From positions 26,226,001 through 26,290,000 of the forward strand of contig NC_043015.1 of NCBI RefSeq assembly GCF_006345805.1: a stretch of 64,000 bases of DNA, in the 5' to 3' direction. Made by a program: the position numbers. Origin of the DNA: Octopus sinensis (taxonomy: Eukaryota). Positions 1 through 25,600 of the stretch are shown here, in pieces. Positions within the stretch are counted from its first letter, which is position 1; every line of letters begins with the position of its first letter.

Positions 1-3000
1 GCTTGCACTTAAGGATAAAATTTCAGCTAATGATGTTGATATCACAAATCTCAACCACCTACACTATGCATCCGCGAAAATCTCAACGTTCCTATGTGCT
101 GAAAAGATTAGAAAATGGCAACATTCCCACAAAAAGCCTTCTTGGCAAGAGCCTTTGCAACAACAAATTAAACTATTTAGATCTGACATTGAATATTTGA
201 AGAACCTTAAGGTTCACAAGACCACCAAACCTACAAAAACCCCAAAATTACTGAAAACATACAATATGAAAACTATACTTGATATTGATGCCACCATAGA
301 AACCATCAAACAAAAAGTATCTGCCAAAGCTGCCCGCATAGCGAGGTATGAAAAGCGTGTTAGATTTTTCAAGGACAACAACATGTTCATAAATAACCCC
401 AAGAATTTTTACAGGAAGATAGGAAAAACAGCGTTTACTGCAAGGTCTGTACCATCAAAAGAAGAAGTGCAGGGATTTTGGAATAAAATCTGGGCAGAAG
501 AAAAAACACACAACGAAAAGGCCCCCTGGTTGATAGAATATCTACACAACAGGACTCCTTAGAAGAGCAAAAGGGTGTCAAGGTAGAAGATATAAGATCT
601 GCTCTCAGGAGGTCAAGCAAATGGAAGTCTCCAGAAAGGTATAAAATTCCTAACTTCTGGCTGAATGCCTTCCCAGAGAGCCATGAACTGCTAACAGAAC
701 TTTACAATGATGATTTGCAACACCCTAGTAGGATGCCTCCCTGGTTAGTTAATGGGTTAACATTCCTGCTTCCAAAAAGTGAAAAAACAAATGAACCAAA
801 AAACTATAGACCCATAACCTGCTTAACAACTATGTATAAAACGCTAACATCTGTCCTGACGGAATATACCTATAGTTTTTTAACAGACAGCAGCATATTC
901 CCTAATGAACAGAAAGGATGTAAACGTGGATCCTATGGTTGTAAAGATCAACTACTCATCAATAAGATGATCTTAGAAGATTGTCACAAACGACACAAAA
1001 ACTTGTCAATAGCCTGGATAGACTGCGAAACTTTTTGTCTGTAAGTATGAGATCATGGAGAACCACACTAACTTTGAACAATGACAATGAATCTCTAAAT
1101 GCTGGTGATATAAAAATTTCATGTGGCATTTTCCAGGGTGACTCACTGTCACCACTCCTCTTTTGTTTAGCCTTAATACCTCTCTCAAAATTGCTCAATG
1201 ACGCGCAGTACGGGTATAAAATGTTTGATAAAAATATAAATCATCTCATTTACATGGATGATTTAAAGCTCTTTGCAAAAAATAACCAACAACTCAAGGG
1301 CTTACTAGCAATTGTTACACAATTCAGTGACAACATGAGAATGCAATTCGGCCTCGATAAATGTGCAAAAGCTACTTTTATCAAAGGAAAAATGACAGAA
1401 ACATCTAACTTTAACCTTGACCAGCAGAATGTCATAAAAGAACTAGACCCAGCGGAGAGTTACAAGTACCTAGGGGTAATTGACGGGAACGGAATAAGGC
1501 ATTCAGTAATGAAGGAAAGGTTCAGGTGAGAATGTTATCGCAGAATAAGAGCAATACTCAAGACAGAGCTGAATGCAAGAAACAGAATCGAAGCGATCAA
1601 TACATTAGCCATACCAGTCGTGATTTACAGTTTCAATATCGTTAACTGGTCAATTACTGAAATATGTCAGCTCGACAGATAAATAAGAAAACTGTTGACA
1701 ATGCATAGAATGCACCACCCTAAGGCAGATACAGAACGACTTCATCTGCCAAGAAAAGAGGGAGGGCGTGGTCTTCTACAACTGGCAATAACAATGAAGA
1801 TTGCTACAATTGGCCTAGACACCTACCTGAAAAAGTCTGAGGACTGGATGTTAAAACTTGTCTCAAAACATGAAAACAAGAAAGCATCATACTCAGTAGC
1901 AAAATAGGCAAAAGAAATATCTAAGTGAATTCCGAATACAACAAATTTCGGAATTAGACATACAAGAAACAAGCTAAGCGCATGAAAACCCGTGCTAAAA
2001 CTGCTGCCTTAGATATTCTGAATGATAAATGGCGAGAAAAAACTCTCTATGGCATATACCGAAAGAGTGCGAATAATGCAGATGTTGACAAAGCCCTGAC
2101 CCATCAATGGCTAATGGCCTCTGATTTAAAATCTGAAACAGAAGGGTTTATCATAGCAGCTCAAGATCAATGCCTACCAATAAGGAACTACCAGGCCAAC
2201 ATATTAAAGAACGGCAGTAGCCCAACATGTCATGTATGTCAACAACAAAATGTAACCATTGATCATGTTGTTTCCAAGTGCAGGCTTCTAGCGCCTACAG
2301 AGTATCAGAGTATCTCAACAGGCATGATAGAGCTGCACAATATATTCACCGGGTAATCTGCACAAACCTGGATTTGCCCCATGAAAATACTGGTGGGAAC
2401 ACAATCCACCTCCAGTGCTTGAAAATGACCACATCTCACTCCTCAGGAACTTCCCCATTCAAACTGACAGAAAGATAGATGCAAATAGACCAGACATCAT
2501 ATTGAAAGACTTCAAACAAAGAACATGCATCCTCATTGATATGACTGTCCCAATCGATATAAACGTATCTGTCAAGACCTACCAAAAACTGAGCAAATAT
2601 AAAGATCATGAAATAGAAATCAGCAAAATGTGGAACCTGAAGACTAAAACAATACCTGTTGTCATAGGTGTTCTGGGAATGATAGGAAAAGGGGCTGATT
2701 GCTACCTAACTCAGATACCAGGAAACCCCAAAATGGCAGAAATTCAAAAGATAGTGCTCATGGGAACTGCTCATATCCTACGCAAAATATTTACTATGTA
2801 ATCTCAAGTTTTAAAACAAACATAATTTTGTTGGGTTTTTTTCAGACATTCATTAGTACAACACTAAATACAAAACCAAATATATGGCACACTAGGTATA
2901 ACAACATCAGGAACTTCCAACCTGTAGTTTCTTGAGGTCTCTGGGTGAGACTTGGAGCCAACTTGTACAAATATAAAGCAAAAGTCAAACATGGAATAAT

Positions 3001-3051
3001 CATAATAATAATAACAACAATAACAACAACAACAATAACAATAACAATAAC

Positions 3052-3118
<67 letters not shown>

Positions 3119-22623: not shown

Positions 22624-22675
<52 letters not shown>

Positions 22676-25600
22676 GTTATTGTTATTGTTATTGTTGTTG
22701 TTGTTATTATTATTATGATTATTCCATGTTTGACTTTTGCTTTATATTTGTACAAGTTGGCTCCAAGTCTCACCCAGAGACCTCAAGAAACTACAGGTTG
22801 GAAGTTCCTGATGTTGTTATACCTAGTGTGCCATATATTTGGTTTTGTATTTAGTGTTGTACTAATGAATGTCTGAAAAAAACCCAACAAAATTATGTTT
22901 GTTTTAAAACTTGAGATTACATAGTAAATATTTTGCGTAGGATATGAGCAGTTCCCATGAGCACTATCTTTTGAATTTCTGCCATTTTGGGGTTTCCTGG
23001 TATCTGAGTTAGGTAGCAATCAGCCCCTTTTCCTATCATTCCCAGAACACCTATGACAACAGGTATTGTTTTAGTCTTCAGGTTCCACATTTTGCTGATT
23101 TCTATTTCATGATCTTTATATTTGCTCAGTTTTTGGTAGGTCTTGACAGATACGTTTATATCGATTGGGACAGTCATATCAATGAGGATGCATGTTCTTT
23201 GTTTGAAGTCTTTCAATATGATGTCTGGTCTATTTGCATCTATCTTTCTGTCAGTTTGAATGGGGAAGTTCCTGAGGAGTGAGATGTGGTCATTTTCAAG
23301 CACTGGAGGTGGATTGTGTTCCCACCAGTATTTTCATGGGGCAAATCCAGGTTTGTGCAGATTACCGGTGAATATATTGTGCAGCTCTATCATGCCTGTT
23401 GAGATACTCTGATACTCTGTAGGCGCTAGAAGCCTGCACTTGGAAACAACATGATCAATGGTTACATTTTGTTGTTGACATACATGACATGTTGGGCTAC
23501 TGCCGTTCTTTAATATGTTGGCCTGGTAGTTCCTTATTGGTAGGCATTGATCTTGAGCTGCTATGATAAACCCTTCTGTTTCAGATTTTAAATCAGAGGC
23601 CATTAGCCATTGATGGGTCAGGGCTTTGTCAACATCTGCATTATTCGCACTCTTTCGGTATATGCCATAGAGAGTTTTTTCTCGCCATTTATCATTCAGA
23701 ATATCTAAGGCAGCAGTTTTAGCACGGGTTTTCATGCGCTTAGCTTGTTTCTTGTATGTCTAATTCCGAAATTTGTTGTATTCGGAATTCACTTAGATAT
23801 TTCTTTTGCCTATTTTGCTACTGAGTATGATGCTTTCTTGTTTTCATGTTTTGAGACAAGTTTTAACATCCAGTCCTCAGACTTTTTCAGGTAGGTGTCT
23901 AGGCCAATTGTAGCAATCTTCATTGTTATTGCCAGTTGTAGAAGACCACGCCCTCCCTCTTTTCTTGGCAGATGAAGTCGTTCTGTATCTGCCTTAGGGT
24001 GGTGCATTCTATGCATTGTCAACAGTTTTCTTATTTATCTGTCGAGCTGACATATTTCAGTAATTGACCAGTTAACGATATTGAAACTGTAAATCACGAC
24101 TGGTATGGCTAATGTATTGATCGCTTCGATTCTGTTTCTTGCATTCAGCTCTGTCTTGAGTATTGCTCTTATTCTGCGATAACATTCTCACCTGAACCTT
24201 TCCTTCATTACTGAATGCCTTATTCCGTTCCCGTCAATTACCCCTAGGTACTTGTAACTCTCCGCTGGGTCTAGTTCTTTTATGACATTCTGCTGGTCAA
24301 GGTTAAAGTTAGATGTTTCTGTCATTTTTCCTTTGATAAAAGTAGCTTTTGCACATTTATCGAGGCCGAATTGCATTCTCATGTTGTCACTGAATTGTGT
24401 AACAATTGCTAGTAAGCCCTTGAGTTGTTGGTTATTTTTTGCAAAGAGCTTTAAATCATCCATGTAAATGAGATGATTTATATTTTTATCAAACATTTTA
24501 TACCCGTACTGCGCGTCATTGAGCAATTTTGAGAGAGGTATTAAGGCTAAACAAAAGAGGAGTGGTGACAGTGAGTCACCCTGGAAAATGCCACATGAAA
24601 TTTTTATATCACCAGCATTTAGAGATTCATTGTCATTGTTCAAAGTTAGTGTGGTTCTCCATGATCTCATACTTACAGACAAAAAGTTTCGCAGTCTATC
24701 CAGGCTATTGACAAGTTTTTGTGTCGTTTGTGACAATCTTCTAAGATCATCTTATTGATGAGTAGTTGATCTTTACAACCATAGGATCCACGTTTACATC
24801 CTTTCTGTTCATTAGGGAATATGCTGCTGTCTGTTAAAAAAACTATAGGTATATTCCGTCAGGACAGATGTTAGCGTTTTATACATAGTTGTTAAGCAGG
24901 TTATGGGTCTATAGTTTTTTGGTTCATTTGTTTTTTCACTTTTTGGAAGCAGGAATGTTAACCCATTAACTAACCAGGGAGGCATCCTACTAGGGTGTTG
25001 CAAATCATCATTGTAAAGTTCTGTTAGCAGTTCATGGCTCTCTGGGAAGGCATTCAGCCAGAAGTTAGGAATTTTATCCTTTCCTGGAGATCTCCATTTG
25101 CTTGACCTCCTGAGAGCAGATCTTATATCTTCTACCTTGACACCCTCCCACTTTTGCTCTTCTAAGGGGTTCAGTTCTGTAGATATTCTATCAATCCAGG
25201 GGGCCTTTTCGTTGTGTGTTTTTTCCTCTTGCCCAGATTTTATTCCAAAATCCCTGCACTTCTTTTGATGGTACGGACTTTACAGTAACTGGTGTTTTCC
25301 CTATCTTCCTGTAAAAATTCTTGGGGTTATTTTTGAACATGTTGTTGTCCTTGAAAAATCTAACACGCTTTTCATACCTCGCTATGTGGGCAGCTTTGGC
25401 AGATACCTTTTGTTTGATGGTTTCTATGGTGGCATCAATATCAAGTATAGTTTTCATATATTTTTTCATTAATTTTTGGTTGTTTGTAGGTTTGGTTGTC
25501 TTATCAACCTTAAGGTGTTTCAGATATTCAATGTCAGACCTAAATAGTTTAATTTGTTGTTGCAAACGCTCTTGCCAAGATTGCCTTTTGTGGGAATGTT

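What the first reader, a model, noticed from the sequence alone, without database searches (positions are those of the whole stretch)
641..25077. 4.7-kb near-identical inverted block embedded in diverged R4 copies: ectopic copying that moved unique DNA and made chimeric elements
Seen: ~641-5366 is the reverse complement of ~20375-25077. This includes the unique ~780-bp spacer and private lesions (deletion at 1024, cagagtat duplication at ~2300, deletion at ~5315). Differences are limited to homopolymer/microsatellite length and a few SNPs near 4850-5250. Outside the block the pairs clearly differ (A 1-640 vs D; B 5367-7470 vs C, each with its own deletions). Inference: one side was a single element (e.g. 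D-5' + C-3', whose breakpoints are only ~190 bp apart on the element map). It would have acquired the 3'-half/spacer/5'-half junction from the other side by misaligned SDSA/gene conversion, giving a ~26-kb palindrome-like locus. Ongoing arm-to-arm conversion is an alternative.
Basis: partly seen in the sequence, partly recalled or inferred. Interest (0 to 1): 0.7.

Follow-up and report, generated by a model that had tools for sequence, protein, structure and literature searches.

The report
Identical inverted block inside diverged retrotransposons
Two clusters of old, broken (TAA)n-targeting retrotransposons face each other about 10 kb apart, and a 4.7-kb stretch running from the middle of one element, across 0.8 kb of DNA between elements, into the next element was very recently copied from one cluster to the other; it is a tidy example of a known DNA-repair process.

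Summary
Window 641-5366 is the reverse complement of 25077-20375. Positions 641-4848 show 0 substitutions in 4087 aligned bases outside a microsatellite. Positions 4849-5368 show 6 in 520. The flanks differ by 7.4% (1-640) and 4.95% (5369-7468).

The four repeats are degraded, once full-length R4/Dong-type non-LTR retrotransposons inserted in (TAA)n. Homology between the two sides stops at the elements' 3' tails. The 0.78-kb spacer is the only non-element DNA shared, and it lies wholly inside the block.

The two block borders map 193 alignment columns apart on the element. So the block is almost exactly one tandem period long. I give this about 0.5.

The direction of copying is unresolved, because the tests conflict.

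Rivals:
- An older inverted duplication, or a composite retro-copy, later homogenised by arm-to-arm conversion.
- An assembly or polishing artefact.

Neither can be excluded without reads, the DNA left of the window, or other copies of the family.

The spacer is not strictly unique: an old paralogue lies at 28169-28655. This is a known kind of event and of modest interest.

The parts
1..3118 (+). Element copy A (R4/Dong-type non-LTR retrotransposon). Its 5' ~1.3 kb is cut off by the window start; the (AAT)n/AACAAT tail is at ~2996-3118. Bases 1-640 are the diverged flank; 641-3118 lie in the identical block.
3119..3899 (+). Left copy of the ~780-bp inter-element spacer. It ends in a degenerate GAT/GGT/AAT microsatellite that was the target of B.
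3900..7553 (+). Element copy B. The 5' end is complete (starts CTGACAGATCC after AATAATAA), with extra sequence near the 5' end (108 alignment columns in which D has gaps). It has a 389-column deletion at 5316 and a 136-bp deletion at 6032; the (AAT)n tail is at ~7470-7553. Bases 3900-5366 are in the block; 5369-7553 are the diverged flank.
641..5366 (+). Left copy of the near-identical block. 641-4848 has no substitution outside the microsatellite; 4849-5366 carries 6 substitutions.
20375..25077 (-). Right copy of the near-identical block, the reverse complement of 641-5366.
7554..17857 (.). Central ~10.3-kb region between the two sides. It has no inverted homology to itself or across the element ends. 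It contains the 166-bp segment 17073-17238 that also occurs inside D.
17858..21841 (-). Element copy C, the counterpart of B. The AAT/GAT tail is at 17858-18125 and the body at 18126-21841. 18126-20372 is the diverged flank.
21842..22622 (-). Right copy of the spacer. It differs from the left copy by one base of an A run.
22623..26905 (-). Element copy D, the counterpart of A. Its complete 5' end at 26905 (CTGATAGATCC) abuts (AAT)n at 26908-26990. 25078-26905 is the diverged flank.
26233..26420 (-). Insertion private to D, flanked by a 90-nt direct duplication of D's own sequence (26143-26232 and 26421-26510, 94% identical). 166 bp of it are 97% identical to 17073-17238.
28169..28655 (-). Old diverged paralogue of the spacer: collinear patches of 75-94% identity. 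Like the spacer, it ends in a GAT/GGT/AAT microsatellite followed by an inserted (AAT)n-tailed element.

Best explanation
The repeats are four dead copies of one R4/Dong-type, (TAA)n-targeting non-LTR retrotransposon family. They are neutral DNA; the structure has no function.

Most likely history (inferred). One side held two elements in tandem, separated by ~0.78 kb of other DNA. The other side held a single element of the same family in inverted orientation, 10-25 kb away. A break in that single element, near element-map columns 1945-2138, was repaired by homologous recombination. The upstream end copied from the first donor element. The downstream end paired with the second donor element. 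This could be two-ended gap repair, or SDSA/BIR-like synthesis with two homology-guided template switches. Everything between the two pairing points was copied in: the 3' 2.5 kb of donor element 1, the spacer, and the 5' 1.5 kb of donor element 2. About 193 bp of the recipient was lost. The result is two chimeric elements, a second inverted copy of the spacer, and a ~26-kb palindrome-like locus.

The 1.15% zone at 4849-5368 needs something more. It could be patchy mismatch repair at that end of the tract. Or the copying may be slightly older, with 641-4848 re-homogenised by a later arm-to-arm conversion that stopped at the diverged flank. Over-polishing of the assembly is a third possibility.

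What is shown and what is not:
- Shown: the step-like identity profile, the border positions, the element ends and the target sites.
- Inferred: the single-element recipient and the repair mechanism.
- Unresolved: which side was the donor.
For: 1. Identity profile. 0 substitutions in 4087 bases, flanked by 7.4% and 4.95% divergence, with a sharp left border between 640 and 641.

2. Seamless borders. Both borders lie within continuous element homology, with no filler or junction sequence.

3. Border positions. They map to columns 1945 and 2138 of the four-copy alignment. The tract length therefore equals the tandem period minus 193 columns. The single-element model requires this. For a conversion between pre-existing arms I estimate it as a roughly 3-5% coincidence; this is my own estimate, assuming tract lengths are broadly distributed over 0-9 kb.

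4. Inner edge. Homology between the sides ends at the elements' (AAT)n tails. BLAST at word size 9 finds no match between 7561-8400 and 17000-17860. This fits independent insertions into separate (TAA)n sites.

5. Flank divergence. In the 400 columns where all four copies are present, A and D differ at 31 sites, A-B at 26 and A-C at 25. So A and D are no closer to each other than to the other element. The two flank pairs are unequally diverged (p=0.022).

6. Element identity. RVT_1 E=1e-22. The best solved relatives are R2 proteins. Full-length relatives of ~1200 aa exist. (AAT)n abuts all 4 of 4 3' ends and both of the 2 distinct 5' ends. This matches the published R4/Dong description (PMC7998251, passages read).

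7. A second scar nearby. D holds an older 188-bp insertion with a 166-bp copy of DNA from 9 kb away, flanked by a 90-nt duplication.
Against: 1. Outer edge unseen. A is cut by the window start. Whether the sides share DNA beyond the elements' 5' ends is unknown.

2. Three divergence levels (0%, 1.15%, ~5-7%). One simple event does not predict them. A patchwork of this kind is what repeated arm-to-arm conversion of an older inverted duplication would give.

3. Conflicting direction tests. Taking the left side as recipient fits the whole distal flank (p=0.92) but not the 435 four-way sites next to the border (p=0.036). Taking the right side as recipient fits those near sites (p=0.31) but not the whole flank (p=0.032) or the far part (p=0.003).

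4. An unexplained run beside the right border. In the first 189 four-way sites beyond it, 10 differences are private to C, 0 are private to B, and only 1 separates A/D from B/C. The model does not explain this.

5. B and C are closer to each other (4.95%) than to A/D (133 and 137 differences in 1970 sites). That also fits B and C being DNA-level duplicates.

6. The p=0.022 for unequal flank divergence is modest. Mitotic conversion tracts can be very long (PMC3758752, passage read), so tract length alone is not unusual.

7. No reads were available, so an assembly or polishing artefact is not excluded.
Confidence: 0.5

Rival explanations
1. An older inverted DNA-level duplication of the whole A-spacer-B unit (a palindrome with a ~10-kb centre) has been partly re-homogenised by successive arm-to-arm gene conversions of different ages. 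The block is only the latest and longest tract, and the spacer was already present on both sides.
For: The sides are collinear over at least 7.5 kb. The four divergence levels (7.4%, 0%, 1.15%, 4.95%) look like a patchwork of conversions. B and C are closer to each other than to A/D in the distal flank (96 vs 133 and 137 differences in 1970 sites). Long conversion tracts are known in mitotic cells (PMC3758752, passage read).
Against: The duplication's inner edge would have to fall exactly in B's (AAT)n tail, since no homology lies beyond it. The tract length would match the tandem period within 193 columns by chance. A and D are not each other's nearest relatives in the left flank (31 vs 25-26 differences in 400 sites). 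The two flanks differ in divergence (p=0.022). No disabling lesion shared outside the block was found between A and D or between B and C; every frameshift or indel mapped there is private to one copy.
Confidence: 0.2
2. Composite retro-copy. A read-through RNA running from A's 5' end through the spacer to B's 3' end was reverse-transcribed into a (TAA)n site on the right. Such an RNA is possible if B's 5' processing signal was disabled by its extra 5' sequence. This would have created D-spacer-C as one insertion, and later conversion made the identical block.
For: The right unit is bounded by an exact element 5' end next to (AAT)n at 26905 and by an (AAT/GAT)n tail at 17858-18125. R4/Dong RNAs are cut out of longer co-transcripts by a 5' ribozyme (PMC3774820, passages read). 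B and C carry extra sequence right behind the 5' end, 108 alignment columns in which D has gaps.
Against: Retro-copies are not expected to land 10 kb from their source; this rests on general knowledge, not a test here. The same coincidence of tract length with tandem period is needed. Source and copy should be equally diverged along their length, but the flanks are 7.4% and 4.95%. No ribozyme was detected by Rfam, either in the whole window at gathering score or in 26600-27000 at E up to 10. That is weak evidence, because such ribozymes are hard to detect.
Confidence: 0.05
3. Assembly or polishing artefact. Either the block was wrongly placed on one side by mis-threading through near-identical repeats, or two truly similar (~1% diverged) copies were made identical by consensus polishing with multi-mapped reads.
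For: In 641-4848 the only differences are three 1-base homopolymer indels and a microsatellite length difference. These are typical consensus errors. Real substitutions reappear only within ~520 bp of one border. That is where reads anchored in the diverged flank could be placed correctly.
Against: The junctions are seamless and keep element collinearity on both sides. There is a substitution gradient at one border but none at the other. The 24-bp microsatellite difference and the 6 substitutions show that the assembler kept the two copies apart. No reads could be examined, so this is not tested.
Confidence: 0.15

Closest known systems
Ectopic (non-allelic) gene conversion or gap repair between dispersed repeats (SDSA, double-strand-break repair or BIR with template switching), as reviewed in PMC3758752 and studied for yeast Ty1 in PMC9879454 (passages of both read)
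   Same: A non-reciprocal identity tract sits within diverged homologous flanks. Both exchange points lie in repeat homology. A nearby intrachromosomal template was used. Hybrid (chimeric) elements result.
   Different: The tract bridges two separate donor elements and carries the non-repeat DNA between them. This turns one element into two and duplicates the spacer in inverted orientation. The donor, the direction and the pathway are not established here.
Inverted-repeat-mediated inverted duplications and triplications (the DUP-TRP/INV-DUP type of rearrangement in human genomic disorders; recalled, no paper read)
   Same: Two template switches are guided by inverted homologous repeats and insert an inverted copy of the intervening DNA.
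   Different: The scale here is kilobases, not hundreds of kilobases. Both switches lie in transposon copies of one family. There is no triplication.
Large palindromes kept alike by arm-to-arm gene conversion (for example primate sex-chromosome palindromes; recalled, no paper read)
   Same: Inverted arms around a central spacer, with a stretch of near-perfect identity between arms.
   Different: Identity here is step-like, not uniform. Arm homology stops at transposon ends on the inner edge. The arms consist of dead transposons rather than genes.
R4/Dong clade of site-specific non-LTR retrotransposons (PMC7998251 and PMC3774820, passages read)
   Same: Reverse transcriptase followed by a C-terminal Cys/His motif and a restriction-enzyme-like endonuclease region. 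A single long ORF in intact relatives. Insertion into (TAA)n.
   Different: All four copies are degraded by frameshifts and by deletions of 76-389 columns. Placement in the clade by a tree with reference R4/Dong sequences was not done.

Membership tests
R4/Dong clade non-LTR retrotransposon (identity of the repeats) | Reverse transcriptase domain of the R2-like (restriction-enzyme-like endonuclease) LINE group | tested here: met
   Pfam RVT_1 E=1.1e-22 on B 5310-6323. All 5 PDB sequence hits are R2-type retrotransposon proteins, E from 1.7e-15 to 1.9e-7.
R4/Dong clade non-LTR retrotransposon (identity of the repeats) | C-terminal Cys/His motif plus restriction-enzyme-like endonuclease instead of an AP endonuclease | tested here: inconclusive
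   By eye, the translations of B and C and the relatives P0001 and P0013 show C-x2-C-x8-H-x4-C, then RHD, then RPD...D...K. Reading these as the endonuclease motifs is recalled. The C ORF 18343-18981 gave no Pfam hit and no PDB hit. P0013 gave only a weak zf-RVT match, E=0.0018, below cut-off.
R4/Dong clade non-LTR retrotransposon (identity of the repeats) | Insertion into (TAA)n microsatellites (Dong type) | tested here: met
   All 4 of 4 3' ends run into (AAT)n. Both of the 2 distinct 5' ends (B, which is identical to C, and D) start CTGAYAGATCC directly after AAT repeats. The target is as described in PMC7998251 (passage read).
R4/Dong clade non-LTR retrotransposon (identity of the repeats) | 5' HDV-like self-cleaving ribozyme | tested here: inconclusive
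   No Rfam match in the whole window at gathering score or in 26600-27000 at E up to 10. No structure-based search was made.
R4/Dong clade non-LTR retrotransposon (identity of the repeats) | Groups with reference R4/Dong elements in a reverse-transcriptase tree | not tested
   No reference R4 or Dong sequence was on hand. The named relatives are unclassified animal proteins.
Ectopic gene conversion / templated break repair between repeats | A tract of near-identity embedded in clearly diverged homologous flanks | tested here: met
   0 substitutions in 4087 bases, against 47 in 633 and 102 in 2062.
Ectopic gene conversion / templated break repair between repeats | Both tract ends lie in homologous sequence, with no junction filler | tested here: met
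   Four-copy alignment around columns 1945 and 2138.
Ectopic gene conversion / templated break repair between repeats | Identifiable donor and recipient (non-reciprocity) | tested here: inconclusive
   Site-pattern tests point in opposite directions near and far from the border. Both polarisable in-block homopolymer indels are derived in D. Of the 6 substitutions in 4849-5368, 5 are private to B.
Palindrome maintained by arm-to-arm conversion | Arms homologous throughout, including DNA beyond the repeats at both edges | tested here: not met
   At the inner edge, homology ends at the (AAT)n tails, with no match between 7561-8400 and 17000-17860. The outer edge is not testable because A is cut by the window start.
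Palindrome maintained by arm-to-arm conversion | Uniformly very high identity between arms | tested here: not met
   The profile is step-like: 7.4%, 0%, 1.15%, 4.95%.

The most novel reading that the evidence does not exclude
A palindrome was born in one step. A single break in a lone site-specific retrotransposon was repaired with its two ends templated on two neighbouring inverted copies. This duplicated non-element DNA in inverted orientation and made two chimeric elements. Clusters of elements that target the same microsatellite would then act as seeds for palindromes and for moving ordinary DNA, without any transposition.
Probability: 0.45. Interest if true: 0.45.

Novelty: new member of a known kind. 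Interest (0 to 1): 0.3.

Why it matters
If the single-element reading holds, this is a clean natural example of recombinational repair between transposon copies that duplicates and inverts ordinary DNA and creates a palindrome. The two exchange points can be placed to within a few bases.

It also has practical consequences:
- Chimeric copies of this kind distort transposon age and subfamily estimates.
- Exact inverted repeats of several kilobases are fragile and hard to assemble.

The process itself is well known, and the locus consists of dead elements with no sign of a gene. The wider significance is therefore modest.

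Tried and rejected
1. Other copies of the same family, wanted to polarise substitutions and type the flanks. Two searches of the large protein collection with B's 337-aa reverse-transcriptase ORF were run: 'longer' and 'near', with the best 120 hits listed each time. 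The best identities were 62% and 66%. No same-family copy is available, so trees with other genomic copies could not be built.

Other copies of this genome therefore stayed unchecked.

3. Ribozyme at the element 5' end. Rfam gave nothing relevant.

4. Endonuclease domain by Pfam or PDB sequence search. No hit.

5. Donor/recipient direction from branch-load proportions. The answers conflict. I rejected making any directional claim.

6. The run of C-private differences just outside the right border: 10 of 11 variable sites among the first 189 four-way sites. I considered a template switch back to D, or repair-associated mutagenesis. I rejected both as over-reading. The window was picked after looking, and the region is the conserved start of the reverse transcriptase.

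7. Fold-back origin. Rejected: a ~10.3-kb non-palindromic centre separates the sides.

8. Reciprocal crossover between inverted copies. Rejected: it would invert the interval without duplicating the spacer.

9. Human origin of the window. Rejected: all named relatives are invertebrate animals, namely insects, a shrimp, a coral and a sponge.

Full report
**Setting**

The window is 64,000 bases, 36% G+C, and has no N. It is packed with microsatellites and transposon remnants. These include a mariner-type transposase fragment at 46175-46792 and a second, different R4/Dong-like remnant at 29443-31026. The named protein relatives of the repeats studied here come from insects, a shrimp, a coral and a sponge. 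This is invertebrate animal DNA, not human.

**Checking the observation**

Self-BLAST gives one long inverted match, 2-6037 vs 25718-19704 (97.85% over 6047 columns). It also shows same-strand matches between two element copies on each side. A global alignment of 1-8000 with the reverse complement of 17701-26900, with counts, gives four zones.

| Zone | Left coordinates | Substitutions / aligned bases | Indel events | Divergence |
|---|---|---|---|---|
| I | 1-640 | 47 / 633 | 6 | 7.4% |
| II | 641-4848 | 0 / 4087 (outside microsatellite 3000-3119) | 3 one-base homopolymer indels, plus one 24-bp AACAAT length difference | 0% |
| III | 4849-5368 | 6 / 520 | 0 | 1.15% |
| IV | 5369-7468 | 102 / 2062 | 9 | 4.95% |

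The zones differ significantly: III vs II p=2e-6, III vs IV p=2e-5, I vs IV p=0.022. The homopolymer indels in zone II are at 875, 2351 and 3200.

**What the repeats are**

Each side holds two copies of one family:
- A: 1-3118 (+), with its 5' part cut by the window start.
- B: 3900-7553 (+).
- C: 21841-17858 (-).
- D: 26905-22623 (-).

Evidence on their identity:
- B's ORF at 5310-6323 matches Pfam RVT_1 (E=1e-22).
- Its closest solved relatives are R2 retrotransposon proteins.
- Relatives of 50-62% identity and about 1200 aa exist in animals.
- The C-terminal translations carry a C-x2-C-x8-H-x4-C motif followed by RHD and RPD...D...K. I recognise these from memory as the restriction-enzyme-like endonuclease region of R2/R4-type elements. 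Pfam and PDB sequence searches did not confirm it.
- All four 3' ends run into (AAT)n.
- The two distinct 5' ends (B, identical to C, and D) begin CTGAYAGATCC immediately after AAT repeats.

This is the architecture and target published for R4/Dong elements: reverse transcriptase plus REL-endonuclease, and a (TAA)n target in insects, molluscs and cnidarians (PMC7998251, passages read).

All four copies are dead. tblastn with the intact relative P0013 shows several frame changes in each copy. The four-copy alignment shows a 389-column deletion shared by B and C and a 76-column deletion shared by A and D.

**Anatomy of the locus**

Homology between the two sides ends at the elements' 3' tails. 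DNA after B's tail (7554 onward) and after C's tail (17857 downward) is unrelated. BLAST at word size 9 finds no match between 7561-8400 and 17000-17860. The outer edge cannot be judged because A is cut by the window start.

The only non-element DNA present on both sides is the ~780-bp spacer (3119-3899 and 21842-22622). It lies wholly in the identical zone.

In a four-copy alignment the left border (A641/D25077) is column 1945. The right border (B5366/C20375) is column 2138. The block therefore spans one tandem period minus 193 columns. Column 1945 falls inside the stretch that B and C lack (columns 1700-2089). In real B/C sequence, the right border lies only 49 bp past that deletion.

**Interpretation**

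A recent non-reciprocal transfer between the sides is the only simple way to get 4.1 kb without a substitution between flanks 5-7% diverged. The question is whether that transfer created the two-element structure on one side or merely refreshed an older inverted duplication.

Three results favour creation.
1. Tract length. It matches the tandem period. This must be so if a break in a single element had its two ends templated on two neighbouring donor elements. Otherwise I estimate it as a coincidence of a few percent.
2. Inner edge. The inner boundary of homology is an element end in a (TAA)n tract. Independent insertions explain this automatically. A DNA-level duplication would need its breakpoint to fall there.
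3. Left flank. In the 400 columns where all copies are present, A-D differ at 31 sites against 25-26 for A vs B or C. A and D are no closer to each other than to the other element. The two flank pairs are also unequally diverged (p=0.022).

A composite retro-copy of an A-spacer-B read-through RNA would also explain the element-end boundaries. R4/Dong RNAs are processed from co-transcripts by a 5' ribozyme (PMC3774820, passages read). B also carries extra sequence near its 5' end, 108 alignment columns in which D has gaps. But a retro-copy landing 10 kb from its source is improbable on general grounds. It would also need the same tract-length coincidence.

**Limits and conflicts**

- Zone III shows that the picture is not a single clean event. 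Of its 6 substitutions, 5 are private to B and 1 to C. Possible explanations:
  - the copying is slightly older and 641-4848 was converted again, the tract stopping at the diverged left flank;
  - repair was patchy at that end;
  - polishing erased real differences in the interior of the block.
- I tried to infer the direction by asking which pairing of flanks gives consistent private-mutation loads. The table gives the p-value for each pairing.

| Sites tested | Left side as recipient (A-flank with B-flank) | Right side as recipient |
|---|---|---|
| Whole distal flank | 0.92 | 0.032 |
| Far part | 0.51 | 0.003 |
| 435 four-way sites next to the border | 0.036 | 0.31 |

- The two in-block homopolymer indels that can be polarised are both derived in D.
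- I therefore make no claim about direction.
- In the first 189 four-way sites beyond the right border, 10 differences are private to C, none are private to B, and only 1 separates A/D from B/C. This may be chance combined with conservation of that part of the reverse transcriptase. I leave it unexplained.
- No reads were available, so an assembly or polishing artefact remains open.
- No other copies of this family could be obtained. The best protein identity was 62-66%.

**Other observations bearing on the story**

- The spacer is not strictly unique. Collinear patches of 75-94% identity lie at 28655-28169 on the minus strand. They again end in a GAT/GGT/AAT microsatellite followed by an inserted (AAT)n-tailed repeat.
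- D carries a private 188-bp insertion (26233-26420) flanked by a 90-nt direct duplication of its own sequence. Of that insertion, 166 bp are 97% identical to 17073-17238 in the central region. This looks like an older, smaller templated-insertion scar at the same locus, though a small mobile element is not excluded.

**Comparison with known systems**

The event works like ectopic gene conversion or gap repair between dispersed repeats. Mechanisms are reviewed in PMC3758752, and hybrid Ty1 elements formed after induced breaks are described in PMC9879454 (passages of both read). It also resembles inverted-repeat-guided template switching (recalled). It differs from classical maintained palindromes (recalled): identity is step-like, and arm homology stops at transposon ends.

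**Verdict**

- Observation: confirmed.
- Interpretation: partly supported, with the single-element bridging-repair model at about 0.5.
- Kind of event: known. I file this as a new member of a known kind.
- Interest: 0.3.

Noticed in passing
window 26143-26510 (insertion 26233-26420) and window 17073-17238: D carries a private 188-bp insertion flanked by a 90-nt direct duplication of its own sequence (94% identical). Of the insertion, 166 bp are 97% identical, in the same orientation, to a segment ~9 kb away in the central region. It could be an older templated-insertion repair scar or a small mobile element.
   Followed up: partly
window 28169-28655 (-): An old diverged paralogue of the 'unique' spacer: collinear patches of 75-94% identity. 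Like the spacer, it ends in a GAT/GGT/AAT microsatellite followed by an inserted (AAT)n-tailed element.
   Followed up: partly
window 26908-27499, 27543-28149 (both -) and 31288-31673 (+): Three copies (87-93% identical) of a ~560-bp repeat, each ending in an (AAT)n tail. Two lie head-to-tail directly upstream of D. The start of the copy next to the spacer paralogue resembles the Dong-type 5' end (..ATAGATC..). It may be a non-autonomous partner of the R4/Dong family inserting into earlier tails.
   Followed up: no
window 29443-31026 (-): Remnant of a second, clearly different R4/Dong-like element. It shows 30-37% protein identity to P0013 over the reverse transcriptase and the C-terminal Cys/His-endonuclease region, and lies next to a 156-bp (TTA)n array at 29020-29175.
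   Followed up: no
window 5369-5560 / 20372-20181: Immediately outside the right border, 10 of the 11 variable sites among 189 four-way sites are private to C. None are private to B, and only one separates A/D from B/C. Four of the C-private changes fall within 12 bp at the border itself. The cause is unexplained.
   Followed up: partly
window 626-640 / 25092-25078: Five differences in the last 15 bp before the left border. Compared with intact relatives, A carries a compensated -1/+1 frameshift (SPERYK instead of SPGKDK) and D a Lys-to-Arg dinucleotide change.
   Followed up: partly
window 44905-44976 (-): Rfam tRNA match: 34.2 bits against a gathering score of 29. It is the only Rfam family above threshold in the window and may be a tRNA gene or a tRNA-derived SINE head.
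   Followed up: no
window 46175-46792 (+): A mariner-type transposase fragment (Pfam Transposase_1, E=8e-26).
   Followed up: no
window 12050-12483 and 53459-53714: Short tandem duplications with longer units: 183 bp x 2.4 (85% matches) and 116 bp x 2.2 (99% matches).
   Followed up: no
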